NCBI GenBank assembly: GCA_028823885.1
Contig: JAPPFK010000055.1
Coordinates: 6,971-70,970 of the forward strand
Length of the DNA stretch: 64,000 nt
Direction of reading: 5' to 3'
From: Rhodospirillales bacterium
GTDB lineage: Bacteria; Pseudomonadota; Alphaproteobacteria; Rhodospirillales; UBA2165
The first letter of the stretch is position 1; every line of letters begins with the position of its first letter. The position numbers and the translations under genes are program-made. Below, one piece after another: positions 1 through 37,385 of the stretch. The notes beneath the pieces are model-generated. The model saw only the letters and a list, made by a program, of their open reading frames with translations, was not told the origin of the DNA and searched no databases.

Positions 1-53
1 AACCCATAGATTTAACCTTCTTGCCTATCCACACATCTAGCCTGGAGGAAAAA

Positions 54-4961: not shown

Positions 4962-5038
4962 TGGTCGGGGAGAGAGGATTTGAACCTCCGGCCCCTGCCT
5001 CCCGAAGACAGTGCTCTACCAGGCTGAGCTACTCCCCG
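4962..5038 (-). tRNA. tRNA-Pro (anticodon CGG)
   Basis: Reverse complement CGGGGAGTAGCTCAGCCTGGTAGAGCACTGTCTTCGGGAGGCAGGGGCCGGAGGTTCAAATCCTCTCTCCCCGACCA folds as a cloverleaf. It has a 7-bp acceptor stem, a TTCAAAT T-loop, an encoded CCA, and anticodon loop TTCGGGA. Confidence 0.9.
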
Positions 5039-21754: not shown

Positions 21755-22512
21755 GCGAGCCTCCGCGACTCTCCGCGGTGGTCAGCATCCACAACGAGGA
21801 AGACCGCCTAGCTGCCTGTCTGGAGAAACTTGCGTTCGCCGATGAAATCGTCGTACTGCTCGACCGTTGCACGGATCGGAGCCTGGAAATCGCCCGGCAA
21901 TTTTCCGATCGCATCATCGAAGGCGCTTGGCCGGTCGAAGGCGACCGCCGAAATGCCGGCATTGAGGCATGCGCGGGACCCTGGGTGCTTGAGGTCGACG
22001 CCGATGAACACGTGTCGCCCGAATTGGCGGAAGAGATTCGATCAACCGTTCGTCAAACCCGGTCGGATTGGCATGAAATCCCCGTTGACAATTACATCGG
22101 AAATCGCCTGGTGCGCCACGGCTGGGGCGCATCCTACGGAAAAGCCGCCTACCCCGGCCTGTTCAAGCGTGACGTTAAACGCTGGGGACGGCAACGTGTG
22201 CATCCCCGTCTTGAATGGTCGGGCAAGAAGGGCGACATGCTGACCAACCGATTGGCGCATTTCGTCGACCGGGATATTTCGGACATGGTGCGCCGCCTGG
22301 ACAGCTATTCCACGGCGCGTGCCCGGGACCTTCGCGATGCGGGCGACATCGGATCGACCGCCAACAACGTCCGGCGGCTGTTTTCCAGGTTTATCAAATG
22401 CTACATCGGCCGGCGCGGCTACCGGGAGGGCGGCTACGGCTTCCTGATCGCTTTGTTTGCCGGGCTATATCCGTTGCTCTCCCATCTCAAGGCCAAGGCG
22501 GAGCTCGATTGA
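21751..22512 (+). CDS. glycosyltransferase family 2 (tandem paralogue)
   Basis: SAVVSIHNEEDRLAACLEKL...VVLLDRCTDRS and EVDADE. GTGA overlap with the upstream gene. Collinear with the previous GT2. Confidence 0.8.
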   Translation: MSEPPRLSAVVSIHNEEDRLAACLEKLAFADEIVVLLDRCTDRSLEIARQFSDRIIEGAWPVEGDRRNAGIEACAGPWVLEVDADEHVSPELAEEIRSTVRQTRSDWHEIPVDNYIGNRLVRHGWGASYGKAAYPGLFKRDVKRWGRQRVHPRLEWSGKKGDMLTNRLAHFVDRDISDMVRRLDSYSTARARDLRDAGDIGSTANNVRRLFSRFIKCYIGRRGYREGGYGFLIALFAGLYPLLSHLKAKAELD

Positions 22513-23546
22513 TGGCGCGGATCGTGCTCGCCGACGACGGCATCGCGTTTGACGGCAGAAGTCCGGAGGCCGGCCCGTTGGGCGGCGTCGAGTCGGCAGT
22601 GGTCTATCTGGTCCGCGAATTGGCGCGGCGGGGGCATCAGGTCAGCGTTCACAACAAGTGCGAAAACAGGGAGGAAATCGATGGCGTTCTTTGGTCACCC
22701 ATCGGCGACGGGCTGCCGGGAGAGGCCGACCTCTATATCGCCAATCGCGGCGACAAGCTCCTCCCGCTGATGCCCCATGCCCGGCGAACCATATTCTGGA
22801 TCCACAATCCGGCGCGATATCTCCTGAAATTGCGTTACCTCTCCAAACTGTGGCGTCTCAAGCCGGCCATCGTTTTCGTCGGCGACTACCACGCGACCAC
22901 CTACCCCGCCTGGGCACCGGTCGGAGATCGGGTGGTCATTCCCTACGGGGTCGCGCCATTATTCTCCGGGCTTGCCGAGATAGAAGATCCGCCACCCGCG
23001 CGGGCGATATTTACCTCAAATCCGTTACGGTCGCTGAACTGGTTGTTGGATTTGTGGACGGCAAGAATCCGCCCGCAGGTGCCGGACGGCGAACTGCATC
23101 TGTTTACGGGTGCGCTGACCTACGGAGCCATCGGGGCGCGCAAGTCCGATCCCATGGAGCAGGTTCTGGCGCGGGCCCGCGAGCTTGCCGACCATGGCGT
23201 GGTTCTCCGGGAGCCGGTATCGAAGACCGAGCTGTTGTCAGAGCTTAGGTCGTCACGGGTCATGCTGTATCGAGGAGATCTCAACGAGACGTTCTGCCTG
23301 GCCGTGGGTGAAGCGCAGGCGGCCGGGGTGCCGGCGGTGGTTCAGCGTTTCGGATCAATGGTCGAACGGGTGATTGACGGCGAAACCGGATCGGTGACAG
23401 ATAGCGACGATGAATTTGCTTCGGCGGCGATCCGGCTCCTGACCGGGAATGAGACTTGGCGGTCCCAACATCGGGCCGCGCTGGAAAAGCAGTCCCGATG
23501 GACTTGGCCGCATGCCGCGGCCGCGTTTGAAAGGCTGATCCCCTGA
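22512..23546 (+). CDS. glycosyltransferase family 4 (paralogue of 18946-19986)
   Basis: IAFDGRSPEAGPLGGVESAVVYLVRELARRGHQV mirrors the first GT4. ETFCLAVGEAQAAGVPAV. ATGA-type overlap with the upstream stop. Confidence 0.75.
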   Translation: MARIVLADDGIAFDGRSPEAGPLGGVESAVVYLVRELARRGHQVSVHNKCENREEIDGVLWSPIGDGLPGEADLYIANRGDKLLPLMPHARRTIFWIHNPARYLLKLRYLSKLWRLKPAIVFVGDYHATTYPAWAPVGDRVVIPYGVAPLFSGLAEIEDPPPARAIFTSNPLRSLNWLLDLWTARIRPQVPDGELHLFTGALTYGAIGARKSDPMEQVLARARELADHGVVLREPVSKTELLSELRSSRVMLYRGDLNETFCLAVGEAQAAGVPAVVQRFGSMVERVIDGETGSVTDSDDEFASAAIRLLTGNETWRSQHRAALEKQSRWTWPHAAAAFERLIP

Positions 23547-26393: not shown

Positions 26394-27602
26394 CTAGAAT
26401 CGATAATCCGACACATCGAGGCCGAGGGCCTCGCGGCCCCAGGCCGTGAGATAGATATCCCAGTTGTTCTGGTGGTGGGCGCCCGCGGCCTTCACGTCGC
26501 GCAGCTTGCGCTGGATGTCGTTGTCGTTATAGAGCCCGTTGCCGCCCCAGGCGTAGAACAGCCGGTCGACCGCCTTCTGGCAGAGGACGCAGACGTAGGC
26601 CATGTCCCGCTTGTTGCGGAGCCGCTCCTCGTCGGTGAGGGGACGATCCCGCAATATCTCCTCGGTCTCCCGGAGGTTGCGCAGCATCAGGCTTTCCGCG
26701 GCCCGCGCATCCGCCGCGCTTTCGGCGATCCTCAGGTGGATGGACTGGAAGTCGGCGACCTTTTCGCCGCCCCGGTTGATCCGCGTCTCCATGGCGTCGA
26801 TGAACTGCTCGACGGCGCCCAGCGCAAGTCCGACCGATACCGAGACCAGGGAGTAGGGCGCAACCGAGATGCGGGGCAGCCGGAAGACGGGGTGGTCGTA
26901 CATTTCGGCTCCCGGCGTGGTGCCGTCGAGCCCGTCCCTGGACGGGAAGGTGCGGTGTTCGGGCACGAAGGCGTCCTCGAACTCGACGAAGCAGGAGCCG
27001 GTGCCGCGCAGCGCGAAGGTATCCCAGTTGTCGATGATCCGTCCTTTGTCGCGCTCGATCAGGATATGGAGCATGCCGGACCCGTCGGCGAGGACGGCGT
27101 TGTTGGCGAGCCAGCCCGCATGTTTGCACCCTGACGAGAAGGTCGCCCAGCCGTTCAGCAGATAACCGCCGTCGGCGGGGGTGAGGGCGCACTTTCTGGC
27201 GATGCTTTCCTCGGTGCCCGTATTGCCGCCGGAACAGATGAACTGGTCCGGGCCGGAGGCCCACAATTCGTTCTGCGCCCGTTCCGGAAATCCGGCACAG
27301 GTGTTGGCGTGCTCGGCGTAGACCGCATAGACCCAGGCGGTGGAAGCGCATCCCTTGGCGAGCTCCGCGCATACCTGGACCAGCACGTCCCATCCGTATT
27401 CGTAACCGCCGTACTTCCTGGGCATGCAGACCCGGATCAGCCCGTGGCGGCGGAAGTCGCCAAGGGTTTCCTCGGGGATGGCGGCGGCCTCTTCGCAGGC
27501 CGGCGCGCGGGCCAGCAGATCGGGCACCATGGACCGCGCCCGGGAGATCAGCTCCGCCGGGCTCGGGATATCGATGTTGGTGTCGGCGGCGACGCCCTCC
27601 AT
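26394..27602 (-). CDS. acyl-CoA dehydrogenase-fold flavoprotein (two-component monooxygenase-like)
   Basis: ACAD-like length and layout. RHGLIRVCMPRKYGGYEY N-domain motif. Start taken at MEGVAAD. Confidence 0.7.
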   Translation of the reverse strand: MEGVAADTNIDIPSPAELISRARSMVPDLLARAPACEEAAAIPEETLGDFRRHGLIRVCMPRKYGGYEYGWDVLVQVCAELAKGCASTAWVYAVYAEHANTCAGFPERAQNELWASGPDQFICSGGNTGTEESIARKCALTPADGGYLLNGWATFSSGCKHAGWLANNAVLADGSGMLHILIERDKGRIIDNWDTFALRGTGSCFVEFEDAFVPEHRTFPSRDGLDGTTPGAEMYDHPVFRLPRISVAPYSLVSVSVGLALGAVEQFIDAMETRINRGGEKVADFQSIHLRIAESAADARAAESLMLRNLRETEEILRDRPLTDEERLRNKRDMAYVCVLCQKAVDRLFYAWGGNGLYNDNDIQRKLRDVKAAGAHHQNNWDIYLTAWGREALGLDVSDYRF

Positions 27603-27769
27603 GACGCTCTCTCTCCTGTTGGAACCGGCATCGGCCGGCACAGGCCAGCATAGGTGTGGCGTATTTGCCGGTAAAGGGCCGCCCCGAAACACATCGGGCA
27701 TGGCGGCGGGGCCGTCGGCATCGCCGAAAACCGGCGACGCGCCGGGCGGTTTTGCGTATTGTCCGGGCC

Positions 27770-28198
27770 ATGGAACTCGATTTCGACTGGTTCAACCTGC
27801 ACGTCGGCGCCTTGGTGGGGACGGCGCTGGTATTCGGCGGCATGTCGTTCTTCGCCTTCGTCTTTACGCCCATGGTCTTCAAGTTCGTCGAGCGCGAGGA
27901 CGCGGCGCACTTCCTGCGCCAGGTGTTTCCGGTCTATCACCGGGTGATCGCGAGCCTCAGCTGTGTCCCCGCCATTTTGCTGATCCCCGGCGGCCGGTCC
28001 TACACGCCGGAGGTGACGGCGCTGTTGGCGGTGGCGCTGCTCAACCTCGTCTCGGCGCGGTTCATCGTGCCGGCGGCCGACGCGGCCCGCGAGGCCGGCG
28101 ATCAGAAAAAGTTCGCCGCCATCCACCGGTTGAGCGTGATCCTGCACACGGGCGAACTGGTCGCTATGCTCGTCGTACTCATTAGACTGGCCCAGTAG
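27770..28198 (+). CDS. DUF4149-like integral membrane protein
   Basis: 142 aa with four predicted TM helices. Start at MELDFDWF. Confidence 0.5.
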   Translation: MELDFDWFNLHVGALVGTALVFGGMSFFAFVFTPMVFKFVEREDAAHFLRQVFPVYHRVIASLSCVPAILLIPGGRSYTPEVTALLAVALLNLVSARFIVPAADAAREAGDQKKFAAIHRLSVILHTGELVAMLVVLIRLAQ

Positions 28199-28227
28199 CG
28201 GGGCAAGTAGAGCCCATCACGCGCGCA

Positions 28228-28236
28228 TGATATAAT
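28228..28236 (+). promoter_or_regulatory. extended -10 promoter element TGaTATAAT
   Basis: Perfect TGnTATAAT about 50 nt upstream of the ATG at 28287, at the GC-content drop. Confidence 0.4.
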
Positions 28237-28286
28237 TTCGGCTACACGGAAAACGGGCGGAACAGGTATGCGCCCAAGGGTAGTGG

Positions 28287-29171
28287 ATGCGACGTTTATT
28301 TAGATCAAGCCGGCTGCTGTGGGCGGTGTTGGTGTTGTTTGGGCTGACGTTTGGCTGGACGCTCGACAGCAACGTCGCAGGTGAACTGGTTTGGTCTCGA
28401 ATTGATGCGGCCGCGCGAAATGACACAACAAGGAGGTGGGAAGAATTTCAGAAGGCCGTCCCGCATTTCGATTTGGAACAGGCGCTATTCGCCTACCAGC
28501 ACTACCGACGAGATCCGGATCGCTACCGACTGGCCCTAAAACTGTATGTCATCCGCCATCCCGAGGCCCGGGTGAAGGCCAACCGTGAGTATGTCGAATG
28601 GCAGGATTGGCCCAAATTCTTTCGCGACGACTTCGACAAGGAGATCAATTGGCTAAAGCGTGTCTCAGCCATGCCGCCGGACGACATCTTCGAGTTGTCG
28701 CGACGGTTAAAGGGGAGGGTGGCAGACGATGCGAGCGACGAAGTCCGCAGCCTCAATGGTTCGATTTCCCATGCGTTGGCGATATACGCCGAAAACGCGG
28801 GTTCGGGCGCGGCGATGTATTTTCATGCGAAGGCGAATTTGGTCTCAGCGGTCGAATCTGCGCGTATCTTCGGATGCAACCCAGGGGCACCGGAACTCGT
28901 TATGTGGAAGGCCGCTGACCTGGAGTACGGTCCCGCTATCATCGATCTCATTTCGATGTATCTGATTGGTCGCTGCGTCGCGGAGGATTTTACGCGCGCC
29001 TATTACTGGGTGCTGAGGGGACGTCGGGCCGGGATAGACGTGAGCGGCCCTGCCGCCCGGGTGGAAGCCGGGGTGTCACCGGGCCAGCGTTCATTGGCGG
29101 AGAATTGGCTGGCCCGTGCCGAGGTACCCTCGGTCCATGACTACAAGAATTTAAACCGAACGACGCGGTAG
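28287..29171 (+). CDS. secreted hypothetical protein with a Sel1-like C-terminal repeat
   Basis: Signal-peptide-like MRRLFRSSRLLWAVLVLFGLTFG. C-terminal ISMYLIGRCVAEDFTRAYYWVLRGRRAG resembles a Sel1/TPR-like repeat. A sampled 60-nt line is 52% GC. Confidence 0.55.
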   Translation: MRRLFRSSRLLWAVLVLFGLTFGWTLDSNVAGELVWSRIDAAARNDTTRRWEEFQKAVPHFDLEQALFAYQHYRRDPDRYRLALKLYVIRHPEARVKANREYVEWQDWPKFFRDDFDKEINWLKRVSAMPPDDIFELSRRLKGRVADDASDEVRSLNGSISHALAIYAENAGSGAAMYFHAKANLVSAVESARIFGCNPGAPELVMWKAADLEYGPAIIDLISMYLIGRCVAEDFTRAYYWVLRGRRAGIDVSGPAARVEAGVSPGQRSLAENWLARAEVPSVHDYKNLNRTTR

Positions 29172-29175
29172 GAAT

Positions 29176-29862
29176 TCAGCATCGATAGCCGTGACTTTTG
29201 CGGCAGTTGCAGAAGTCGTTCCAGGATTTCTCGGCCTGACGCCTGTCCGTTGCAAGCTTCCTGTTGATTTCTTCCAGTTCGGATTGCGCCTGAGACAGTT
29301 CCGCTTCCAGTCTTTGAATTACCTGTCGTTTCTTGGAATTTTCCAACGCCTGTTTCGCCGCAATGGCGGCATCTAACGCCATTAGAGCTGCTCGCGTCGC
29401 TGGTGTTAGCTTTACCAGGTCACGCATCACGGTGACGGCCGCAGGAAGTTTATCTTCTTTCAGGTTGGCAATGGCTTCCATACGTCGCTTCACGTCGTCT
29501 GATTTTTTCAGCGAAGCCTCATCCAACGGTTGGACCACTTCTATATCCGCTCGATGGTCCCACCAAAGGTCTCGGCACGGATCGTCGGCGGAGCTAGGCG
29601 GAGGCTCTTTCGGCTTCTCGTCTTCGGGCAGGTTAGCGGGCGGCGGCGGTTTGGGCTTGTCGTCTTTCGGCGGGTCTTTGGGCGTTTCCCCCTCACCTTC
29701 CTTGGCGGCGATCCGCTGGGCGTAGGGCGCCAATGCCCGCATGGTCTCGCCGTCCGGGTTGGCGTAGCCGTCGACTTTCAGGTTGTTCGCGTTCTGAAAA
29801 CTCTCCAGCGAGGCGGCGAGGGAATAATCTCCCCAGCCCGCCGGACATGGTCCCGGTCTCAT
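29176..29862 (-). CDS. hypothetical protein: PG-binding-like fragment, Pro/Lys-rich linker, coiled coil, Cys-rich tail
   Basis: SLESFQNANNLKVDGYANPDGETMRAL resembles the last half of a PG_binding_1 domain. It is followed by PKDPPKDDKPKPPPPANLPEDEKPKEPPP, heptad-like ELSQAQSELEEINRKL, and then NDFCNCRKSHGYRC. Confidence 0.55.
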   Translation of the reverse strand: MRPGPCPAGWGDYSLAASLESFQNANNLKVDGYANPDGETMRALAPYAQRIAAKEGEGETPKDPPKDDKPKPPPPANLPEDEKPKEPPPSSADDPCRDLWWDHRADIEVVQPLDEASLKKSDDVKRRMEAIANLKEDKLPAAVTVMRDLVKLTPATRAALMALDAAIAAKQALENSKKRQVIQRLEAELSQAQSELEEINRKLATDRRQAEKSWNDFCNCRKSHGYRC

Positions 29863-29909
29863 GGAAACAATTGGAAGCCAGGACCCAAACCGCCTTAGGG
29901 GAGAACGCC

Positions 29910-30107
29910 ATGGTTTGGGGCGAAGACTACAGCGTCGGCGACACGCGGTTCGACGACGGCCACAAGATCATCATGGAGCTGATCGGCGTATGCCGCGACA
30001 CCGACAAGCGCGACGAGATGGAGACCCGGCTCCGCGAGCTCCATGAACGGCACAGTGGCGGAGATACAGGGGTTGCCGCCGACATGATCGTATTCCTGAA
30101 CGATTGA
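29910..30107 (+). CDS. hemerythrin-like N-terminal fragment (65 aa, possibly truncated)
   Basis: MVWGEDYSVGDTRFDDGHKIIMELI matches the bacteriohemerythrin start W-x-D-x-YSVG-x3-D-x2-H-x2-L. It is only about half the normal length. GGGGAG SD upstream. Confidence 0.35.
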   Translation: MVWGEDYSVGDTRFDDGHKIIMELIGVCRDTDKRDEMETRLRELHERHSGGDTGVAADMIVFLND

Positions 30108-30224
30108 CGGCGTTGGCACGGTCTCGAGAATGATTCGGAATATGCCCGCCGCGCCGGGGAACCGGGCGTCATGCAGCGGTGCGGATTTTGTCGGGGTGCC
30201 GTCCGGTACCGGACCGCGGGCGGC

Positions 30225-30258
30225 AAAAAGGCCGGCCCTTTGGGGGCCGGCCGTTTTA
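30225..30258. terminator. bidirectional rho-independent terminator
   Basis: AAAAA-GGCCGGCCC-TTTG-GGGGCCGGCC-GTTTTA. On the minus strand the stem is followed by CTTTTTG, directly after the small gene ending at 30300. Confidence 0.6.
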
Positions 30259-30299
30259 GTGCGAACTCGGAGCCTCAAGAGCTCGGGCGGTTTGCCTCG

Positions 30300-30470
30300 T
30301 TAGATGGCGATCGCCGCCTGGCGCCACGCCGAGGTACCCTTGCAGTCAGGACATACCCGCTCACCAATATGGTGCGACGTGAAATCCTTCGAACACATCA
30401 AGCACTTGCGCTTCTTGATGTTCTGGTTGTCAGCCTGAGGCTTTTTGTTCATCTCGCTGCGAGACGACAT
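30300..30470 (-). CDS. small zinc-ribbon protein (56 aa)
   Basis: MSSRSEMNKKPQADNQNIKKRKCLMCSKDFTSHHIGERVCPDCK has a CxxC...CxxC pattern. Perfect AGGAGG SD 6 nt upstream. A terminator follows. Confidence 0.6.
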   Translation of the reverse strand: MSSRSEMNKKPQADNQNIKKRKCLMCSKDFTSHHIGERVCPDCKGTSAWRQAAIAI

Positions 30471-30836
30471 GGTATCCTCCTGGGTGCTCTTTCCAGTCCG
30501 CAAAGTCACTCGTACCCGGCCCGATGACCGGGGCCACACGCAACCGCGCAGATTGGATTGTCTGTCCGAAGGGCGCGCCAATTGGGAATCCAGGAACGCG
30601 CCCGTTACAGGGGACAAGTATATAACGACACCCCGGCGAAATAGCTATGCATTTTTTGCATGACTGATATGCGGGACGTCAACGAACAATCATCTCAATC
30701 CTAAATGGTTCACAAATCATCAACCGCAAGGGCCCGTTCACCGGTCATTGCCCCGATATTCCGGGATTTATCCACAAGCGGACCACCCAACAACCGGCCG
30801 CCGCGAATTTTGCGCCGCCGCCCGTTTTTCGCGCGA

Positions 30837-31658
30837 CTACTCCCCCGGCTGCGGGCTTGCCTCTTGTGCCGCGGCGGTTTTTGCGGCCGCCGGCGCGCCC
30901 GGCATAGGGGCTTCGGAGACGTCGTCGGGCTGGTTTTTGAACTTCCCGTGCTTCTTGTAATAGGCGTCGGTCTTCACATGCTTGGAGACCACGAACGGCG
31001 CGCCCTTGACGAAGTCATAGAGGGCGACGATGCCGCCGGTCCACATGGTGCGGATCATGTGCATCTTGGCGCGCGACGCGCGAAGCTCGAACAGGTCCGC
31101 GTTTTCGTGGGTGTGATAGGTCTCCCGGTCGTTCAGCACCTCGCGCACCTTCTCGGGCGTCGCCCAGTTGCAGCGGTAGTGAATGGTGCCGTCGGGCCGG
31201 ATCACGTAGAGCACGTTGGGCATGGCGCCGTAGCCGCGGTGGAAATCACCGGCCAGGTTGTCGACCAAAACCCGGCGGTGCTCGCCGTAGCGGGGCGTCA
31301 CCAGCTTGGCCGCCGCCATCTTCTCGTCCATGGTTTCATGGGGGCCCAGGCGCTCGCCGGGATGGGCCTCGCGGACATAGATCAGCAGGAAAGTGACATC
31401 CGGGTACTCGCCGGTGATGTCCTTCATGGTCGGGATATTCTTGGTGTACATGGAGCAGGTGGACGACCCGGTCTCCAGCACCACCCACCTTCCCTCGAAA
31501 TCGGAAAGTCTGACCTCGTTGCCGGTCTCGAGTTCGGTGAAGGTGTGATCGACGAACCGCTCACCGGCCCGCGGGCCGATGAACATGTCGAAATTGTAGT
31601 CGTTGGGCTTAAACCGCTTGTTGTTGTAGACGGGGCCTTTTGGTTGCTCGCTCATCAC
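30837..31658 (-). CDS. thioredoxin-fold protein, iodothyronine-deiodinase-like / peroxiredoxin-like
   Basis: VVLETGSSTCSMY active-site-like segment and IYVREAHPGE motif, as in T4-deiodinase-like proteins, with Cys in place of Sec. Lys/Pro/Ala-rich C-terminal tail. Confidence 0.65.
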   Translation of the reverse strand: MMSEQPKGPVYNNKRFKPNDYNFDMFIGPRAGERFVDHTFTELETGNEVRLSDFEGRWVVLETGSSTCSMYTKNIPTMKDITGEYPDVTFLLIYVREAHPGERLGPHETMDEKMAAAKLVTPRYGEHRRVLVDNLAGDFHRGYGAMPNVLYVIRPDGTIHYRCNWATPEKVREVLNDRETYHTHENADLFELRASRAKMHMIRTMWTGGIVALYDFVKGAPFVVSKHVKTDAYYKKHGKFKNQPDDVSEAPMPGAPAAAKTAAAQEASPQPGE

Positions 31659-31829
31659 ACATCCTCGTTCAAATTCCCTGTGTCGGTCGCCGAGAGGGCC
31701 TCAAACGCCCTTTCACGCCGCCAAGGGCAGGGAATCTAGCCCCAAAGCCGAAACCGTTCAACAGAACCAAAAGGTGCGTGGCTCGCATATTGGTATGAGC
31801 GTTCCGCGCTCGGGGGGGGTGTGAGCGGC

Positions 31830-32756
31830 TTACGCGGCGTCCGCCGTGCGGAGGCTCCGGGCAATATCGTCGGCGATGGTCTCGATGCGCCGGCGAATCC
31901 AGATATGGGCCGGATCGTTGTTGCTGCGCTCGTGCCATACCAGATAAAGGGAAATGCCGTCGCTCCTGAAGGGCAGCGGCGCCATGGCCAGATCCCGCAA
32001 CGGGCCGATGTGCATGGAAGACATTTCGGTGGCGATCAGGTCGGTCCCCTTCACGAACGAGGGAATGGCGTTGAAGTTCGAGACGGTGAGGGTCGGCTCG
32101 GGCAGTTCGGGAATATCGGCCCCGCGCAACGCCACACTGCTCCCCAGACCGCCGGCGAAGCGCACGGTTATATGGTTCGAGTTGAGATACTCGACGGACG
32201 TTTTCGGCGCCTCCCGCACACTCGCATCGTAAAAGCACATCATTGCGCCGCTGATCAGCCGGCGTTGGAAAATATCCGGCGCGTCCGGCGGGAGGGGCGT
32301 CAGAACCAGTTGGCACCGGGCGTCCCGGAGCATGGAAATACTGGGCACCCCCGACGGCATGAACTCGAGCCGGAGCCGGATTCCGTCTTCTTGAGCCTCG
32401 CGCCACAGCCGGGGAAAGATCAACTCCCGCTGGAGGTCGTTGGCCGCGACCACGAATTCCATCTCTTCGGTGCGCGGATCGAAGGGCCGCTGGTCGGTGA
32501 GACTGGAAAGGCCGTCGAGTACGCGAAGCACCGGTTCCTTCAGCGAAATCGCCGTTTCGGTCGGCGTCAGGCCCTGGCCCGAGCGGACGAAAAGCGGGTC
32601 TCTCAACACGGTGCGCAGCTTTGCGAGTGAATGGCTGACGGCCGATTGGGTCACGTTCAGCCGGACGGCCGCCTTGGAGACCGAGGATTCCTCGAGAATG
32701 ACGAGGAATGTCCTCAGAATTTTGCCATCGACCTCATCTATATGAGAAATTTTCAT
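31830..32756 (-). CDS. LysR family transcriptional regulator
   Basis: N-terminal wHTH LRTFLVILEESSVSKAAVRLNVTQSAVSHSLAKLR. Divergent from the TRAP operon. Confidence 0.9.
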   Translation of the reverse strand: MKISHIDEVDGKILRTFLVILEESSVSKAAVRLNVTQSAVSHSLAKLRTVLRDPLFVRSGQGLTPTETAISLKEPVLRVLDGLSSLTDQRPFDPRTEEMEFVVAANDLQRELIFPRLWREAQEDGIRLRLEFMPSGVPSISMLRDARCQLVLTPLPPDAPDIFQRRLISGAMMCFYDASVREAPKTSVEYLNSNHITVRFAGGLGSSVALRGADIPELPEPTLTVSNFNAIPSFVKGTDLIATEMSSMHIGPLRDLAMAPLPFRSDGISLYLVWHERSNNDPAHIWIRRRIETIADDIARSLRTADAA

Positions 32757-32853
32757 ATGGTTTATAAATTAACATGAATAGATTTAATGTCCAGGAACCA
32801 ATAGATTCCCCGGTCTCAACTTCCAGAGAAGTTTGTAGTCCGAGGAGGCTTCA

Positions 32854-33864
32854 ATGAAGCGATCACTAATTCTTGCAGGCATGGCGTTGGCCGTGTCGAC
32901 GCCGTTCGCCGCGGAGGTAAAGGCCGAAGAGCTGACCGTCGCGACCTTCATGCCGCCCCAGCATCACATCAACCGCAACCTGTTCGGCTGGTTCGGAAAG
33001 GAAATCAAGGCACGCTCCGGCGGTTCCCTGACCATGAAACTGTTTCCGGCTGGCCAGCTCGGCGCCGGACCCGTCCAGCAGTACAAGCGCGTGGTCGAGG
33101 GCGTCGCCGACATCGTCTTCGGGGTCAGCGCCTACACCGCCGCCGTGTTTCCGCGCACTATGCTGATCATCCCGCCCGGCAAGTCGAAGAATGCCAAGGA
33201 GTCGACGACCCGGATGTGGAACGTCTTCGACAAGTACATGGCCGGCGAATACAAGGCGGTCAAAAGTCTTGGCGTATTCACCGTCGCCGGCAGCCTGTGG
33301 GCGTCGACCAGGGACATGAGCACCATGGACGGGCTCAAGGGCGCCAAGCTGGTGCCGTACGCCGCCATGACCACGCCGATCATGAAGGCAATGGGGGCGG
33401 TGCCCGTACAGATGCCGGTGACCCAGATGTACACCGGTCTCTCCACCGGGACCATCGACGGCACCTACGCGTCCTACAACAACATCACGCCGCCGTGGAA
33501 CTTCTGGGACGTTTCCAAATATGTGGTCGACAATATTCCGGTGCAGTTCGCCGCGACCTTCGTCGCCATGAACAAGGAGCGCTACGCCGGCCTGTCGCCG
33601 GCCCACCGGAAGATCATCGACGAGCTTTCCGGCAAGACGCTCTCCATGGAGGGCGCGGCCACATTCGACGGGGCCGACAATCGCTCCGAGAAGATGATGC
33701 GGTCGTCGGACAAGATGAAGAAGGTGAAGTGGGTCAAGGTGTCCGATGCCGAGCGCGCCAAGATGGATGCGGCGGTCAAGAAGGGCCTCGAGAGCATCTT
33801 CGCCGACTATGAAAAGCGCGGCATCAAGAACGCCCGGGAAATCTACAACGCCTTGAACCAATAG
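32854..33864 (+). CDS. dctP: TRAP transporter substrate-binding protein (DctP family)
   Basis: Signal peptide MKRSLILAGMALAVSTPFAAEVKA. 336 aa. Followed by DctQ and DctM genes. Confidence 0.85.
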   Translation: MKRSLILAGMALAVSTPFAAEVKAEELTVATFMPPQHHINRNLFGWFGKEIKARSGGSLTMKLFPAGQLGAGPVQQYKRVVEGVADIVFGVSAYTAAVFPRTMLIIPPGKSKNAKESTTRMWNVFDKYMAGEYKAVKSLGVFTVAGSLWASTRDMSTMDGLKGAKLVPYAAMTTPIMKAMGAVPVQMPVTQMYTGLSTGTIDGTYASYNNITPPWNFWDVSKYVVDNIPVQFAATFVAMNKERYAGLSPAHRKIIDELSGKTLSMEGAATFDGADNRSEKMMRSSDKMKKVKWVKVSDAERAKMDAAVKKGLESIFADYEKRGIKNAREIYNALNQ

Positions 33865-33923
33865 CGTTGCGATGGGGCCGGGGTCTCCCAATACCCGGCT
33901 CCATCTTTTTCCGGGCATCGACT

Positions 33924-34460
33924 ATGATCGACCGACAGAAACCGCTGCCGTGGCTGGACAGGCTGGACACGATCATCGTCCGTTTCACGGTGATCGCCGG
34001 CGGCCTCGGTCTCGCCTTCATGGTCCTGCTGACGTTCTTCAACGTCATCATCATGCGGAAGATGCTCAACAACCCGATCACCGGGGCCGAGGATCTGCTG
34101 ATCCTCAATCTCGTCCTGATCGTCGCCATCGCCATCCCCTTCGGCGGCCGGGTCGGGGCGCACATCGAAATCGAGATTTTCGAATCCCGGATGTCGCCCG
34201 GATTCGCCCGCTGGTCGCTCTTCATGCTCAAGATCGTCGGGATCGTGTTGGTCGCGCTGCTGTCGTGGCGGTTGTTCGAGTCCGGCGTTTCGGCGAGCAC
34301 GTTCGGCGAGGCGACCCAGCAGCTGCTGATCTCCTACGAGCCCTACTACTACGTCATGAGCGTGCTGGTCGGGTTCTACGGGCTCATCCTGGTGACCGAC
34401 GCCGTTCAGCTGGTGGTCCGCGGCGCCATCAGCGAGATCGGCGGAATCCAGGACGAATAG
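33924..34460 (+). CDS. dctQ: TRAP transporter small permease (DctQ family)
   Basis: About 178 aa with four TM helices, located between dctP and dctM. Start taken at MIDRQKP. Confidence 0.8.
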   Translation: MIDRQKPLPWLDRLDTIIVRFTVIAGGLGLAFMVLLTFFNVIIMRKMLNNPITGAEDLLILNLVLIVAIAIPFGGRVGAHIEIEIFESRMSPGFARWSLFMLKIVGIVLVALLSWRLFESGVSASTFGEATQQLLISYEPYYYVMSVLVGFYGLILVTDAVQLVVRGAISEIGGIQDE

Positions 34461-35822
34461 ATGATCAGCATGTCGCTCATCGGCGTCGTCGGGCTGCTGG
34501 TGCTGTTCGCCCTGCTGGCGCTCAGGTTTCCGGTAGCGCTGTCGATGATTTTCGTCGGCACCGTCGGCACCATCGCCGCCACCGCCAACCGGTTCCTCGG
34601 CCTCGGCATGTCGCCCGAGCAGGCGTGGGAACGGGGCTGGAAGACCGCCATGTCGAACCTGTCCGGCGAAGCGTTCGAGGCGGCGTCCAATTTCAACCTG
34701 CTGGTCATCCCCATGTTCATCCTGATGGGCAATTTGGCCGGCGCGTCGGGCATGTCCCGGGATCTGTTTACGGCGGCCTACCGATGGATCGGCCACTACA
34801 AGGGCGGGCTCGCTTCGGCGACGATCACCGCGTGCGCCGGGTTTGCGGCGCTGTCCGGCTCGTCGCTCGCCTCCGCCGTCACCATGGGCCGGGTGGCGCT
34901 GCCCGAGATGAAACGCTTCAAATACGCGCCCGAGCTCTCGACCGGCGCGGTGGCGGCCGGCGGCACCCTCGGATTTCTGATTCCGCCGTCCGGCGGCATG
35001 ATCATCTATGCGGTCCTGACCGACCAATCCATCGGCCGCCTGTTCATGGCCGGCGTGGTCCCCGGCATCATTCTGACCCTGCTGTTCGTCGGCACCATCT
35101 GGCTTTTGGTGCGGATGAAGCCCGAGCGGGGACCGGCCGGAGAGCGGGCGAGCGCCCCGGAGCGGCGGGAGTCCTTGATCTCCGCGGTGCCGATTGTCGT
35201 GGTGGTCGGTATCACCATCGGCGGCATGTACACCGGTTTCTTCACGCCGGTGGAGGCGTCCGCCGTCGGCGCATTTCTGACGTTTATCGTCGGCGCGGCG
35301 CGCCGGTCGCTCAAGTGGTCCATGGCCCGCGAGATCATTCTTCAAACCATGAAGGCGACGGCGACCGTGTTCCTGATCATCATCGGCGCCTTCATCTTCA
35401 TCCCGTTCATGTCGCTCACCGGTCTCGCCGCCGACATGGTCACCTTCCTCACCTCGCTGCCCATCGGCGAGTTGGGCATCCTGATCGTGGTCATCCTGAT
35501 CTATATGTTCCTGGGCACGTTCCTCGAGAGCATCGCCATGCTGGTGCTGACCATACCGGTGGTGGTGGCGCTCGCGACCCAACTCGGTTGGGACCTCATA
35601 TGGTTCGGCATCATCGTCGTGATCGTTCTCGAGATGGGGATGATTTCGCCGCCGGTCGGCATCAACGTGTTCGTGGTCAAATCCATCGCCCCGGATGTTC
35701 CCATGCGGACCATCTTCAGGGGGATTTGGCCGTTCTGGTTTGCGATGGCGGTGATGATCGCGCTACTTGTCGCGTTTCCGCCCATCGCCATGTACCTGCC
35801 CGAAACCATGCTCGGGCAATAG
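34461..35822 (+). CDS. dctM: TRAP transporter large permease (DctM family)
   Basis: 453 aa polytopic protein. GGLASATITACAGFAALSGSSLASAVTMG and ISPPVGINVFV motifs. Confidence 0.9.
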   Translation: MISMSLIGVVGLLVLFALLALRFPVALSMIFVGTVGTIAATANRFLGLGMSPEQAWERGWKTAMSNLSGEAFEAASNFNLLVIPMFILMGNLAGASGMSRDLFTAAYRWIGHYKGGLASATITACAGFAALSGSSLASAVTMGRVALPEMKRFKYAPELSTGAVAAGGTLGFLIPPSGGMIIYAVLTDQSIGRLFMAGVVPGIILTLLFVGTIWLLVRMKPERGPAGERASAPERRESLISAVPIVVVVGITIGGMYTGFFTPVEASAVGAFLTFIVGAARRSLKWSMAREIILQTMKATATVFLIIIGAFIFIPFMSLTGLAADMVTFLTSLPIGELGILIVVILIYMFLGTFLESIAMLVLTIPVVVALATQLGWDLIWFGIIVVIVLEMGMISPPVGINVFVVKSIAPDVPMRTIFRGIWPFWFAMAVMIALLVAFPPIAMYLPETMLGQ

Positions 35823-35837
35823 CGGGAGGCAATTGCA

Positions 35838-36602
35838 ATGGTTGTGATCACACCGAAGGATAAATCCGTCGCCGCGCTGACCGGCATTCACCTCTACCAC
35901 GGAGACATTTCCAATTGCTCCATGCGGGTCCGGATGACCCTGGAAGAGAAGGGGCTGGATTGGGAAAGCCACCACATCGACCTGAAAAAGAAAGAGAATC
36001 TCGACGAGGGCTACTTCGCCATCAATCCCAACGGCCTGGTGCCGACGATGATCCACGAGGGCGTGGTTCATATCGAATCCAACGAGATCATCGCCTATCT
36101 GGACGAGACCTATCCCGAGCCGCCCCTCAGGCCGGCGGCCCATGCCGAGGCCATCGATACCTGGCTCGCGCGGGCGGCCGACCTCCATGTCAAGGCGGTC
36201 AAGCCCTATGTCTACGCGACGAAGATGGCGCCCAAGCTGCACAAGACGGCCGAGGAGCAGGAACTCTACGACTCGCTCCAGACCAACGAAGAGCTGATCG
36301 AGTTCCATGCCAAGCACGCGGGCGCCTCGCAGTTTTCGGCGGAAGACGTCAGGACCGCCGTCGAGCTGCTGGACGCGGCGTTCTCCGATGCCGAAGAGGT
36401 CCTGAATACGTACGATTGGCTGTCCGGAGAAAAATTCGGCTTGGCTGATATCTCCTGGTTGCCCATACATTTTGTCCTGGTGGGCTGCGGCTATGACTTC
36501 GACCGGTTCCCCAAGGTGATGGGGTGGGTCGAGGCGGCCCGGCAGCGGCGGAGCTATCAAAAGGGCATTCTCGAGTGGTGCCAGGATTTCGCAGACGTTT
36601 AA
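35838..36602 (+). CDS. glutathione S-transferase family protein
   Basis: Thioredoxin-like N-domain LYHGDISNCSMRVRMTLEEKGL...NPNGLVPTM...ESNEII, followed by a helical C-domain. Confidence 0.75.
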   Translation: MVVITPKDKSVAALTGIHLYHGDISNCSMRVRMTLEEKGLDWESHHIDLKKKENLDEGYFAINPNGLVPTMIHEGVVHIESNEIIAYLDETYPEPPLRPAAHAEAIDTWLARAADLHVKAVKPYVYATKMAPKLHKTAEEQELYDSLQTNEELIEFHAKHAGASQFSAEDVRTAVELLDAAFSDAEEVLNTYDWLSGEKFGLADISWLPIHFVLVGCGYDFDRFPKVMGWVEAARQRRSYQKGILEWCQDFADV

Positions 36603-36629
36603 ACGAACAGAGTTCAAGGAGACACTGAA

Positions 36630-37385
36630 ATGAGCAGACTGAAAGACAAGGTGGCCATCGTCACCGGCGCCGCCCAGGGGATCGGCGAGACCTACGCCAA
36701 GGCCATGGCCGCCGAAGGCGCCAAGGTGGTGGTCTCGGATATCGCGGATCCGAGCCGGGTGGCGGACGAAATCAACGCCGGCGGCGGGACGGCGATCGCC
36801 GTTTCCGCCGACGTCACCAGCGACGACAGCATCGCCGACATGGTGGCCGAGACCGACAAGCAATTCGGCCCCGTCGAGATCCTGGTCAATAACGCGGCGC
36901 TGTTCGCCGAGCTTCGCCTGACGCCGATCATGGAGATGTCCAACGAGGAGTGGGACCGGGTGATGACGGTCAACGCCCGCGGCTCGTTCCAATGCATCAA
37001 GGGCGTCGTCCCGTCGATGCTCACCAACGGGCGCGGCAAGATCATCAATATCTCGTCCGGCACCTTCTATTACGGCGGCCCCGGTTTCGCCAACTACGTG
37101 AGCTCCAAGGGCGCGATCCTCGGCCTGACACGGTCGGCGGCGCGGGAATTCGGCGACAAGAACATTTTCGTCAATTGCATCGTTCCCGGATTCACCGAGA
37201 GCGAGGGCGTCGCCAACCACCCGCAGCTTCACGTCGCCCGCGCACCCACCCTCGCGTCCCGCATCATCAAGCGCGACATGATGCCCGAGGACCTGGTCGG
37301 CACGCTGATATTCCTGGCCTCCGAGGACAGCGATTTCCTCTCCGGCCAGAGCATCAATGTGGATGGCGGCAGATACTGCCAGTAG
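36630..37385 (+). CDS. SDR family oxidoreductase
   Basis: TGAAQGIG cofactor motif, NNAA, and catalytic Y-x3-K (YVSSK). Confidence 0.9.
   Translation: MSRLKDKVAIVTGAAQGIGETYAKAMAAEGAKVVVSDIADPSRVADEINAGGGTAIAVSADVTSDDSIADMVAETDKQFGPVEILVNNAALFAELRLTPIMEMSNEEWDRVMTVNARGSFQCIKGVVPSMLTNGRGKIINISSGTFYYGGPGFANYVSSKGAILGLTRSAAREFGDKNIFVNCIVPGFTESEGVANHPQLHVARAPTLASRIIKRDMMPEDLVGTLIFLASEDSDFLSGQSINVDGGRYCQ

What the first reader, a model, noticed from the sequence alone, without database searches (positions are those of the whole stretch)
28199..30700. Low-GC islet of orphan and fragmentary genes embedded in a high-GC core region
Composition drops sharply (one sampled 60-nt line is 52% GC, against about 70% in flanking genes). 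The drop starts right after a perfect extended -10 element (TGaTATAAT at 28228). The islet encodes a signal-peptide protein with a Sel1-like repeat, and a convergent protein made of a partial peptidoglycan-binding motif, a Pro/Lys-rich linker, a coiled coil and a Cys-rich tail. It also encodes a half-length hemerythrin-like ORF and a 56-aa zinc-ribbon protein with its own strong SD and terminator. There is no integrase, no tRNA and no flanking repeats. None of the four products maps to a described system, so this could be a decayed acquired island or an unrecognised envelope-associated module.
Basis: partly seen in the sequence, partly recalled or inferred. Interest (0 to 1): 0.55.

Follow-up and report, generated by a model that had tools for sequence, protein, structure and literature searches.

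The report
Eroding accessory islet between core genes
A small lower-GC patch in a marine Rhodospirillales genome is a lineage-specific insert that deletions are eroding; it carries one intact secreted Sel1-repeat gene, the beheaded remains of its conserved partner gene and a dead hemerythrin gene. This is ordinary genome flux, except that the two-gene pair recurs in distant bacteria and is uncharacterised.

Summary
The GC dip is real but modest: 58.2% against a 63.4% window mean, with GC3 of 0.64-0.67 against 0.80-0.89 for typical genes. The four ORFs exist but are not one module.

- **Zn-ribbon gene.** The 56-aa gene is a core gene. It is 100% conserved within the genus, and in an outgroup it sits 85 bp from the DUF4149 gene.
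- **Islet.** The islet lies between those two convergent core genes. Ancestrally it held a Sel1-repeat secreted protein, a convergent partner (PG_binding_1, Pro-rich linker, Cys-bounded helical domain) and a bacteriohemerythrin.
- **Damage in this genome.** A 418-bp microhomology deletion removed the partner's promoter, start codon and first 75 codons. The hemerythrin has an internal deletion and a stop codon.
- **Sister species.** They show at least four other deletion states, including "empty" sites that still carry remnants.
- **The pair elsewhere.** The Sel1 gene and its partner recur as a tightly convergent pair in 6 of 7 distant lineages examined. Their abutting 3' ends are hypervariable within the genus.

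No function could be assigned; a periplasmic adaptor plus a cell-wall-tethered partner is my inference. Interest is modest.

The parts
27752..28198 (+). Core left flank: DUF4149 membrane protein gene. Not part of the islet.
   Evidence: Pfam DUF4149 E 6e-12. Called as 148 aa in L001. 91-95% amino-acid identity in sister species. Lies next to the Zn-ribbon gene in outgroup L008/L020.
28228..28236 (+). Extended -10 element TGATATAAT, the likely promoter of the Sel1-like gene.
   Evidence: Read in the sequence. GCGCGCATGATATAAT is conserved in L005, L006, L007 and L016, with one change in L002, and is found with both divergent alleles. The consensus scan did not call it because there is no good -35.
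28287..29171 (+). Intact 294-aa secreted Sel1-repeat-family protein. N-terminal MRRLFRS plus a hydrophobic signal, a family-specific N-terminal half, and Sel1 repeats in the C-terminal third (about 28899-29027).
   Evidence: Only 3 close homologues in 5.8e9 proteins. An exhaustive profile search finds 341 representatives, including about 20 full-length-like proteins of 250-300 aa. 10 of 24 family members hit Pfam Sel1. The family profile hits Sel1 crystal structures at 3.7e-31. dN/dS is 0.25-0.31. The AF2 model is all-alpha, pLDDT 43, confident only at residues 225-280.
29176..29862 (-). 5'-truncated remnant (228-aa ORF) of the partner gene. It keeps the C-terminal half of PG_binding_1, the Pro/Lys-rich linker, Cys96, the helical domain and the C-terminal Cys cluster. 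It has lost its native promoter, Shine-Dalgarno sequence, start codon and 75 codons.
   Evidence: PG_binding_1 scores 19.4 bits, below the cut-off of 23, and covers only profile positions 24-52 of 57. The five orthologues are 295-306 aa and carry a precomputed PF01471 hit; rescanned, P0005 scores 28.4 bits, above the cut-off. The alignment shows the N-terminal 75 residues are missing. The DNA alignment shows the deletion. There is no Shine-Dalgarno sequence before the fortuitous ATG at 29862.
29837..29846 (.). Junction of a 418-bp deletion relative to L006 and L007, between imperfect short repeats CC(T/G)(G/A)CGGGC.
   Evidence: Window 32799-29836 matches L006 316-3300, and window 29844-27600 matches L006 3719-6000. 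Base-level alignment.
29910..30150 (+). Bacteriohemerythrin pseudogene. The 65-aa ORF ends at a TGA (30105-30107) that replaces Trp, and about 30 internal codons are missing.
   Evidence: As it stands the ORF scores only E 1.5e-3. With the TGA read as W, two stretches match NF033749 at profile positions 2-49 and 79-126 of 129, E 2.1e-7. The copies in L006 and L007 are frameshifted. No donor copy exists in the window.
30230..30252 (.). Bidirectional GC hairpin terminator between the Zn-ribbon gene and the former hemerythrin gene.
   Evidence: 9-10 pairs with T runs on both strands. Conserved in all sister species.
30300..30470 (-). Core right flank: 56-aa CxxC-x14-CxxC Zn-ribbon protein. Not part of the islet.
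   Evidence: 100% amino-acid identity across the genus and dN/dS 0.02-0.04 against the outgroup. 42 clusters and 162 genome loci in Rhodospirillales, Magnetovibrio and Thalassospiraceae MAGs. Lies next to DUF4149 without any islet in L008/L020. Hits phrog_13335 at E 4.6e-8, function unknown.

Best explanation
Window 28199 to about 30190 is a lineage-specific accessory islet. It sits between two convergent core genes, the DUF4149 gene and the 56-aa Zn-ribbon gene, in a genus of uncultured marine Rhodospirillales.

**Shown**
- The most complete state (L006, L007) is DUF4149 -> Sel1-like gene -> <- partner gene, an AT-rich divergent promoter region, hemerythrin -> <- Zn-ribbon gene.
- In this genome a 418-bp deletion between short imperfect repeats removed the partner gene's promoter, ribosome-binding site, start codon and first 75 codons. 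Those codons include the N-terminal half of its PG_binding_1 domain. The deletion fused the rest of the gene to sequence upstream of the hemerythrin relic, where a chance ATG creates the 228-aa ORF.
- The hemerythrin gene had already lost about 30 internal codons, and here it also carries a TGA in place of Trp.
- Sister species carry other deletions of the same islet. One lacks the relic, the promoter and 12 codons. Two retain only the last ~25 codons of the partner gene. Three are 'empty' sites that keep islet remnants.
- The Sel1-like gene is intact, is under purifying selection and keeps a conserved extended -10 promoter.
- The Sel1-like gene and a partner with the same architecture (Pro-rich linker, Cys, 122-145-residue helical domain, Cys, short tail, with or without PG_binding_1) lie tail to tail, -7 to +23 bp apart, in 6 of 7 distant lineages examined.
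- Within the genus the abutting 3' ends of the two genes are far more diverged than their 5' ends and the flanks, and the alleles do not follow flank relatedness.

**Inferred**
- The two proteins work together outside the cytoplasm.
- The Sel1-repeat protein, exported by its signal peptide, acts as a periplasmic adaptor that binds the partner's helical domain.
- The partner is tethered to peptidoglycan through PG_binding_1 and is held away from the wall by the TonB-like Pro/Lys spacer.
- The two conserved Cys residues close the partner's helical domain with a disulfide.
- In this genome the pair is broken. Only the Sel1 half is likely to be made normally.
For: **Composition.**

**Islet absent from the outgroup, with the core genes 85 bp apart.**

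**Deletion history and remnants.**
- window 29212-30185 is absent in L002.
- alignment of the window against L003 shows the segment that differs.
- the 418-bp deletion and its junction.
- L019 was deleted at an ATCATG microhomology and retains the hemerythrin 3' end. L015 and L017 retain GCGGGCATTGACGG. L016 and L002 retain the partner's last ~25 codons.

**Partner family.** There are only 6 clusters; five are full length with PF01471 and the window copy is the only truncated one.

**Hemerythrin relic.**

**Selection and divergence.**
- dS of the flanking genes is 0.07-0.28.
- dS of the Sel1 gene is 0.36-0.58 against the window-type alleles (L002, L003, L006) and about 2 against the L007-type allele, which is 28% identical at the amino-acid level.
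- dS of the partner gene is about 1.1.
- dN/dS is 0.2-0.3.

**Promoter conservation.**

**Sel1 identity.**

**Conserved pairing.**
- L097: partner E 6e-22 against the family profile, PG_binding_1 38.5 bits.
- L105: linked to the L097 partner by phmmer at about 1e-8.
- L094/L106, L098/L099/L101 and L102: same architecture and Cys spacing.

**Partner structure.** The C-terminal 146 residues are predicted as a confident helical bundle, pLDDT 77-95.
Against: - The partner has no recognisable Sec or Tat signal peptide and no transmembrane segment in any lineage. An extracytoplasmic location rests only on PG_binding_1 and the Cys pair.
- Four of the distant partners share architecture and position but have no statistically significant sequence similarity to the window family.
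- No structural or family match gives a function.
- The Sel1 protein model has low confidence.
- Gain in the genus ancestor is inferred by parsimony from a single outgroup lineage.
- The truncated ORF retains the conserved core of the partner, and one lineage's partner (L098) has no PG_binding_1 domain. Residual function cannot be excluded if the ORF is transcribed.
- The elevated dS could reflect locally higher mutation rather than allele exchange.
Confidence: 0.72

Rival explanations
1. All four ORFs (Sel1-like, PG-binding/coiled-coil, hemerythrin-like, Zn-ribbon) form one unrecognised envelope module.
For: They are adjacent and all lack family assignments passing cut-offs. They stay together in the closest relatives L006 and L007.
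Against: - The Zn-ribbon gene occurs without the other three in the outgroup and in more than 70 other loci.
- Within the genus it is retained at 100% identity where the others are deleted.
- The hemerythrin is a pseudogene in every genome seen.
- Distant copies of the Sel1/partner pair have neither a Zn-ribbon nor a hemerythrin gene beside them.
Confidence: 0.03
2. The pair is phage-derived cargo: a prophage moron or the remnant of a lysis or virion-associated cassette. That would explain its foreign composition, AT-rich promoter, patchy distribution and loss.
For: - On an IMG/VR contig the P0054-type pair sits about 230 bp from a scaffold-like gene and a major head protein gene (phrog_9953, 2.7e-100).
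- The PG_binding_1 domains resemble endolysin wall-binding modules (phrog_1493 at 3e-5 for the L097 partner).
- The native partner promoter region in L006 and L007 is about 100 bp of nearly pure A+T in a 63% GC genome.
Against: - There are no phage genes, integrase or att-like repeats in or near the islet in the window or in its relatives.
- The partner family has no hit in IMG/VR, and neither protein hits plasmids.
- BFVD fold search finds nothing.
- The single viral-contig case lies at the phage/host boundary and may be host DNA.
Confidence: 0.12
3. The pair is a polymorphic antagonism system, an effector plus a secreted Sel1-type immunity protein. Matched C-terminal domains would be swapped as a cassette.
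For: - The hypervariable block is centred on the two abutting 3' ends: 57-64% identity against 92-93% in the 5' parts.
- Alleles are incongruent with the flanks.
- The locus is repeatedly lost.
- From memory, Sel1-like repeat proteins serve as immunity proteins for some type VI secretion effectors.
Against: - The partner has no recognisable toxin or enzyme domain, and neither protein hits PADLOC meaningfully.
- No secretion-system genes lie nearby.
- dN/dS of 0.2-0.3 indicates purifying rather than diversifying selection on average.
- The gene kept when the pair breaks is the Sel1 gene. That fits orphan immunity, but it fits many other models equally well.
Confidence: 0.08
4. There is no foreign origin. 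The lower GC only reflects weakly expressed, weakly selected native genes and intergenic DNA, and the outgroup simply lost them.
For: - The dip is modest at 5 percentage points.
- Part of the flagged low-GC stretch is ordinary core intergenic DNA (30471-30836).
- Other native-looking genes in the window have similar GC3, for example 22215-23546 at 0.67.
Against: - The outgroup spacer is 85 bp with its own terminator and no remnants, whereas every 'empty' site within the genus has remnants.
- The pair occurs in unrelated genomic contexts elsewhere.
- Both islet genes are GC3 outliers.
Confidence: 0.05

Closest known systems
MotX/MotY of the Vibrio sodium-driven flagellar motor (T-ring)
   Same: A periplasmic Sel1-repeat protein works with a peptidoglycan-binding partner. 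The family profile of the 294-aa protein matches MotX chains at E 1.5e-4.
   Different: From memory, MotY binds the wall through an OmpA-like domain, not PG_binding_1. It has no Pro-rich spacer and no Cys-bounded helical domain. No flagellar genes are near the islet, and the tight convergent pairing seen here is not a MotX/MotY feature that I know of.
PodJ polar organising protein of Caulobacter (from memory, not tested here)
   Same: It combines coiled coil, TPR/Sel1-like repeats and a C-terminal PG_binding_1 domain in an alphaproteobacterial envelope protein.
   Different: PodJ is one large membrane-spanning polypeptide. Here the elements are split over two small convergent genes, the partner has no transmembrane segment, and no sequence match to PodJ was sought or seen.
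Solved bacterial Sel1-repeat proteins (PDB 8sxq, 6ok3, 6onw; E. coli C5321/EsiB 4bwr)
   Same: The C-terminal half of the family contains 2-3 Sel1 repeats, with profile E-values down to 3.7e-31.
   Different: The N-terminal ~110 profile positions are family-specific with no match. The window protein itself does not reach Pfam Sel1 even at E 0.1.
Strain-variable accessory loci ('hot spots') between conserved genes, decaying by deletion
   Same: Fixed position between two core genes, deviant composition, presence/absence and allele polymorphism among close species, and microhomology deletions with remnants.
   Different: There is no integrase, tRNA, direct repeats or mobility genes, so it is not a classical integrative genomic island.
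Bacteriohemerythrin (NCBIfam NF033749 / TIGR02481)
   Same: The N-terminal W..SVG...D..HK motif and the C-terminal FL.DW..H motif are in the right order. E 2.1e-7 after reading through the stop.
   Different: Profile positions ~50-78 are missing, there is a premature stop, and scores are below the curated cut-offs. It is a pseudogene.
TonB/TolA-type Pro-rich periplasmic spacers (from memory)
   Same: The Lys/Glu/Pro-rich segment (TPKDPPKDDKPKPPPPANLPEDEKPKEPPP) lies between two domains.
   Different: There is no N-terminal membrane anchor and no TonB C-terminal domain. This is a resemblance only.

Membership tests
Sel1 repeat proteins (Pfam PF08238) | At least one Sel1 repeat matching the profile above the gathering score | tested here: inconclusive
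   The window protein alone has no Pfam hit at E <= 0.1. At family level, 10 of 24 aligned relatives hit PF08238 (best 1.6e-8). The family profile hits solved Sel1 proteins at 3.7e-31 over profile positions ~113-257. Membership is supported through the family, not by the single sequence.
Sel1 repeat proteins (Pfam PF08238) | All-alpha repeat fold | tested here: inconclusive
   The AF2 model is all-helical, but mean pLDDT is 43. Only residues ~225-280 reach 65-83.
PG_binding_1 domain proteins (Pfam PF01471) | Complete ~57-residue domain above the gathering score of 23 bits | tested here: not met
   The window 228-aa ORF scores 19.4 bits and covers only profile positions 24-52. The full-length orthologue P0005 scores 28.4 bits and the L097 partner 38.5 bits. 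The window copy is a truncated derivative of a true member.
Bacteriohemerythrin (NF033749 / TIGR02481) | Full four-helix domain of ~126-129 positions above the curated cut-off (84 / 51.75 bits) | tested here: not met
   18.5 bits as it stands. 31.1 bits with the stop read through, in two stretches covering profile positions 2-49 and 79-126. The middle section is absent. It is a relic.
Classical integrative genomic island | Integrase or recombinase, tRNA or other att target, flanking direct repeats | tested here: not met
   No integrase-like product among the ORFs scanned. The only tRNA is at 4962-5038. No flanking repeats beyond chance 14-19-mers.
Classical integrative genomic island | Deviant composition and presence/absence polymorphism at a fixed site | tested here: met
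   GC and GC3 are outliers. The islet is absent in the outgroup and variably deleted in sister species.
Known anti-phage defence systems (PADLOC) | Match to a defence-system protein model | tested here: not met
   No hits for the Sel1 protein, the partner or the Zn-ribbon protein. One weak coiled-coil-type hit, LmuB at 5.9e-4, to the L098 partner only.
Conserved two-gene unit (Sel1-family gene + Cys-bounded helical partner), proposed here | Tail-to-tail adjacency in unrelated genomic contexts | tested here: met
   6 of 7 lineages, with gaps of -7 to +23 bp: the window genus, L097, L094/L106, L098/99/101, L102 and L105. L100 lacks it.
Conserved two-gene unit (Sel1-family gene + Cys-bounded helical partner), proposed here | Partners are homologous, not merely similar in architecture | tested here: inconclusive
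   Window family to L097 partner, E ~1e-22. L097 partner to L105 partner, E ~1e-8. The L094, L098 and L102 partners show no significant similarity and share only the architecture and the 122-145-residue Cys spacing.
Conserved two-gene unit (Sel1-family gene + Cys-bounded helical partner), proposed here | Physical interaction of the two proteins | not testable with these tools
   No complex prediction or experiment was available. The co-located hypervariable 3' ends are only suggestive.

The most novel reading that the evidence does not exclude
The Sel1-family protein and its Cys-bounded helical partner are a previously unrecognised, horizontally mobile two-protein envelope system. Their interacting C-terminal domains co-evolve and are exchanged between species as one cassette spanning the two abutting 3' ends. 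Examples of what it could be are a polymorphic effector/immunity pair, or a surface module under phage or host pressure in symbiotic Rhodospirillales. The window would then hold an orphaned Sel1 half left after its partner was inactivated.
Probability: 0.2. Interest if true: 0.55.

Novelty: new member of a known kind. Interest (0 to 1): 0.3.

Why it matters
As a locus it is a clean, base-resolved example of an accessory insert being dismantled by small microhomology deletions in uncultured bacteria. It also warns that two annotated 'genes' here are relics: the 228-aa 'peptidoglycan-binding domain-containing protein' and the hemerythrin-like ORF.

The only part with wider reach is the recurring pair of a Sel1-family gene and its convergent partner. 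It is an uncharacterised conserved two-gene unit with a hypervariable junction. If the two proteins do interact, it would add a small envelope module to the catalogue of Sel1-repeat adaptors, and the natural alleles would give ready-made specificity variants to test.

Tried and rejected
- **Exact-sequence look-up of the 228-aa product.** Nothing on record.
- **Donor copy of the hemerythrin patch in the window.** None found by blastn or tblastn. My early reading that a foreign 197-bp patch had replaced part of the partner gene was wrong. L006 and L007 showed that it is native sequence brought next to the gene by a deletion.
- **AF2 of the 294-aa protein with a 3-sequence alignment.** pLDDT was 43, too poor for fold search.
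- **Foldseek of the partner model against PDB and BFVD.** Only generic coiled-coil hits, with best E of 0.37 and 0.12.
- **Profile of the partner family against PDB sequences.** Nothing.
- **Hemerythrin ORF against PDB by phmmer.** Only chance hits.
- **Rfam on 27500-33000 at E <= 1.** Nothing.
- **PADLOC and PHROGs for both islet proteins.** Nothing meaningful.
- **tblastn against plasmids.** No match for the partner or the Sel1 family.
- **Partner family against IMG/VR.** No relative found.
- **The search for related loci with broad alignments.** The metagenome scan with a narrower alignment gave only 4 loci.
- **Literature search for the sample accession.** Nothing found. The likely sponge origin of these MAGs is therefore unverified.


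Full report

The window averages 63.4% GC. The flagged stretch 28199-30700 is 58.2%, which puts it in the lowest ~1% of 2.5-kb windows. Individual 300-bp windows fall to 53-56% at 28150-29650 and again at 30400-30850. The contrast with 'about 70%' holds only for the left flank: the asparagine synthase gene is 70% and the acyl-CoA-dehydrogenase-like gene 66%. Genes to the right are 61-63%.

At codon level the deviation is clearer. Most genes in the window have GC3 of 0.80-0.89. The 294-aa gene has 0.67 and the 228-aa ORF 0.64. The window has other low-GC genes, at 21-1988 and 9764-11863, so this islet is not unique.

TGATATAAT is at 28228-28236. No integrase-like product appeared among the ORFs scanned. 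The only tRNA is at 4962-5038, and repeats around the region are chance-sized. The Zn-ribbon gene has an AGGAGG Shine-Dalgarno sequence and a strong hairpin terminator at 30230-30252.

**2. Which organism, and who shares the locus?**

The 294-aa product is identical to a protein annotated in a Rhodospirillales MAG. Word-indexed search of 5.8 billion proteins gave only three clusters for it and six for the partner gene.

The contigs that carry them (L002, L003, L005, L006, L007) share the window's gene order: asparagine synthase, acyl-CoA-dehydrogenase-like, DUF4149, the Sel1-like gene, the partner, the Zn-ribbon gene, a deiodinase-like gene, LysR and a TRAP transporter. Flanking genes differ by dS of only 0.07-0.28, so these are closely related species.

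A scan of one genome per GTDB species with the Zn-ribbon protein returned 162 relatives. All of the 80 loci returned come from MAGs or single-cell genomes labelled Rhodospirillales or allied marine Alphaproteobacteria (a few only as 'Proteobacteria bacterium'), and six carry a 100% identical protein.

**3. The Zn-ribbon gene is core, not islet.**

It is 100% identical in protein across the genus. Against an outgroup (L008 = L020, a 2.5-Mb contig) dN/dS is 0.02-0.04. In that outgroup it is convergent with the DUF4149 gene, only 85 bp away, and nothing resembling the islet lies between them. In the other ~70 loci it occurs without any of the other three genes.

The second GC dip, at 30400-30850, is this small gene plus its 366-bp upstream region. 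That region is 86-94% identical across the genus and contains a palindrome conserved even in the outgroup.

**4. Reconstructing the islet.**

A base-level alignment of the segment between the Zn-ribbon stop and the partner gene, together with comparison of the 'empty' sites, gives a consistent history.

L006 and L007 have the most complete state, in this order:
- the Zn-ribbon gene and its terminator;
- a hemerythrin-like sequence on the opposite strand;
- about 100 bp of almost pure A+T;
- a Shine-Dalgarno sequence and start codon;
- a partner gene of about 300 aa beginning MPKNQYDP.

The other states are as follows:

| Genome | State |
|---|---|
| Window | Lacks L006 3301-3718 (418 bp). The junction lies in imperfect repeats CC(T/G)(G/A)CGGGC at window ~29837-29846. 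|
| L003, L005 | Lack the hemerythrin relic, the promoter and 12 codons. |
| L002, L016 | Keep only the last ~25 codons of the partner. |
| L019 (complete chromosome) | Lost everything between two ATCATG copies but retains the 3' end of the hemerythrin. |
| L015, L017 | 'Empty', but keep a piece from upstream of the partner promoter. |

The window's deletion removed the A+T-rich promoter region, the ribosome-binding site, the start codon and 75 codons. The 228-aa ORF starts at a chance ATG with no Shine-Dalgarno sequence before it. This explains the 'partial' PG-binding motif: 19.4 bits, covering only profile positions 24-52 of 57. Full-length orthologues pass the Pfam cut-off.

So the islet was present in the genus ancestor and has been hit by at least five separate deletions. 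Because the outgroup shows no remnant and the islet genes are GC3 outliers, acquisition in the genus lineage is the most economical reading. That rests on one outgroup lineage.

**5. The hemerythrin ORF is a pseudogene.**

As it stands it scores only E 1.5e-3 against NCBIfam hemerythrin models and nothing against PDB.

Three-frame translation shows that the copies in L006 and L007 are frameshifted. In L007 the sequence after the break reads ...AFLNDWRRRHI. If the window's TGA at 30105-30107 is read as Trp, two stretches match the bacteriohemerythrin profile, at positions 2-49 and 79-126 of 129, with E 2.1e-7.

The gene therefore lost about 30 internal codons before these species diverged, and here it also carries a nonsense mutation.

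**6. The 294-aa protein.**

It has an N-terminal MRRLFRS motif followed by a hydrophobic stretch. That is a signal peptide, possibly of twin-arginine type; this is read from the sequence and was not tested.

Pfam gives nothing for the single sequence. An exhaustive profile search of 1.84 billion representatives found 341 proteins at E <= 1e-3. These include many multi-repeat Sel1 proteins matching residues ~205-247, and about 20 proteins of 250-300 aa that match over most of the length and also start with a signal peptide. Ten of 24 aligned members hit Pfam Sel1. The family profile hits solved Sel1-repeat proteins at 3.7e-31, and MotX at 1.5e-4. The N-terminal half is family-specific.

The gene is under purifying selection, with dN/dS of 0.25-0.31. 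Its extended -10 promoter and leader are conserved with both allele types. The AF2 model was too poor to use.

**7. A conserved gene pair.**

I looked up the neighbourhoods of distant family members, which are 21-28% identical to the window protein. In each of the following, a convergent gene ends within a few bases of the Sel1-family gene:
- **L097.** A 329-aa protein with PG_binding_1 (38.5 bits), a Pro-rich linker, a Cys, a coiled coil and a C-terminal Cys. E 6e-22 against the window family's profile.
- **L105.** A partner related to the L097 partner at about 1e-8.
- **L094/L106, L098/L099/L101 and L102.** Partners with the same architecture but no significant sequence similarity.

The two conserved Cys residues are 122-145 residues apart in every measurable case. 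L100 has an insertion-sequence-like gene there instead. That makes 6 of 7 lineages.

The flanking genes differ in every case, so the pair travels as a unit.

The partner's C-terminal 146 residues fold with confidence (pLDDT 77-95) into long helices. Nothing in PDB or BFVD resembles them beyond generic coiled coils.

No partner has a signal peptide or a membrane segment.

**8. Hypervariability.**

Within the genus the flanks are 92-100% identical. The window against L006 falls to 57-64% across 28800-29400. That stretch is the Sel1-repeat end of one gene and the helical end of the other. Identity returns to 92-93% in the 5' parts of both genes.

L007 and L016 carry a Sel1 allele only 28% identical to the window's, although L007's flanks are the closest of all to the window: ACAD dS 0.07, Zn-ribbon gene dS 0.03. 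Synonymous divergence in the islet is 0.36-1.2, and about 2 for the L007-type allele. This is several-fold higher than in the flanks, while dN/dS stays at 0.2-0.3.

This pattern fits exchange of old, divergent alleles by recombination better than simple fast evolution. A formal recombination test was not run.

**9. What it most likely does.**

Shown: the structure, history, conservation and pairing described above.

Inferred:
- The two proteins act together in the envelope.
- The exported Sel1-repeat protein serves as an adaptor for the partner's helical domain.
- The partner is tied to the wall by PG_binding_1, is spaced from it by a TonB-like Pro/Lys segment, and is stapled by a disulfide between its two conserved Cys residues.

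The closest working analogy is MotX/MotY, a Sel1 protein plus a wall-binding protein, but the domains and context differ. The missing export signal in the partner is the main weakness of this model.

Three alternatives are kept as rivals: prophage cargo (one IMG/VR contig has the pair beside a major head gene), a polymorphic effector/immunity pair, and purely native low-expression genes.

In this particular genome the pair is broken. Only the Sel1 gene retains everything needed for expression.

**10. Verdict.**

The islet is a decaying accessory insert, which is ordinary. Two of the four 'orphan' ORFs are relics, and one is a core gene that does not belong to the islet.

The one result of wider interest is the recurrent, uncharacterised pair of a Sel1-family gene and its partner, with its hypervariable junction. 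I found no description of it in the family libraries searched (Pfam, NCBIfam, PHROGs, PADLOC). No literature search was aimed at the pair itself.

Noticed in passing
window 30471-30836 (palindrome 30647-30661; -10-like TATATA about 30618-30625, minus strand): The 366-bp region upstream of the Zn-ribbon gene holds the palindrome ATGCAAAAAATGCAT (minus-strand reading). It is conserved in the outgroup L008/L020 and in more distant loci (L025, L027, L040), and a -10-like box follows it. It looks like a conserved operator plus promoter with a leader of about 140 nt. There is no Rfam match.
   Followed up: partly
window 30300-30470 (-): The 56-aa CxxC-x14-CxxC protein is an extremely conserved small protein of marine Rhodospirillales: invariant RKCLMC...F.S...GERVC..CK.T..WR, and dN/dS 0.02-0.04. 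Its function is unknown. It matches phrog_13335 at E 4.6e-8, and some genomes carry two copies, for example L090.
   Followed up: partly
window 30837-37385: The block deiodinase-like, LysR, TRAP transporter (DctPQM), GST and short-chain dehydrogenase lies between the Zn-ribbon gene and LigAB in this genus. It is absent in the outgroup, where LigA is next to the Zn-ribbon gene. This is a second lineage-specific insertion beside the same core gene.
   Followed up: no
window 30837-31658 (-); L007 143-962: A bacterial iodothyronine-deiodinase-like thioredoxin-fold protein (PF00837 E 5.5e-12; NF038285 1.1e-15, below cut-off). In L007 the gene is split into 106-aa and 160-aa ORFs, apparently by a frameshift.
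   Followed up: no
L106 1711-4762 (IMG/VR UViG_3300015615_000950): A distant copy of the Sel1-family/partner pair lies about 230 bp from a scaffold-like gene and a phage major head protein gene (phrog_9953, 2.7e-100). The partner there shares an 'RL(E/S)TIE(R/A)VYD' motif with the scaffold-like protein.
   Followed up: partly
L098 3-746 and 1664-2383: In one metagenome lineage the Sel1-family gene is duplicated on either side of the partner gene. The second copy is frame-disrupted near its 3' end.
   Followed up: no
window 21-1988 and 9764-11863: Two other long ORFs with clearly low GC (54% and 59%) and low GC3 (0.59 and 0.71). They are at least as deviant as the flagged islet.
   Followed up: no
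L006 ~3330-3430, L007 ~1990-2090 (absent from the window): The native promoter region of the partner gene is about 100 bp of almost pure A+T (…TATACTATAATTTATAAATTTATAAAATTAGATATATAAAAATATTATTTAATTATAG…) in 63% GC genomes. It sits between the divergent partner and hemerythrin genes. The window's deletion removed it.
   Followed up: no
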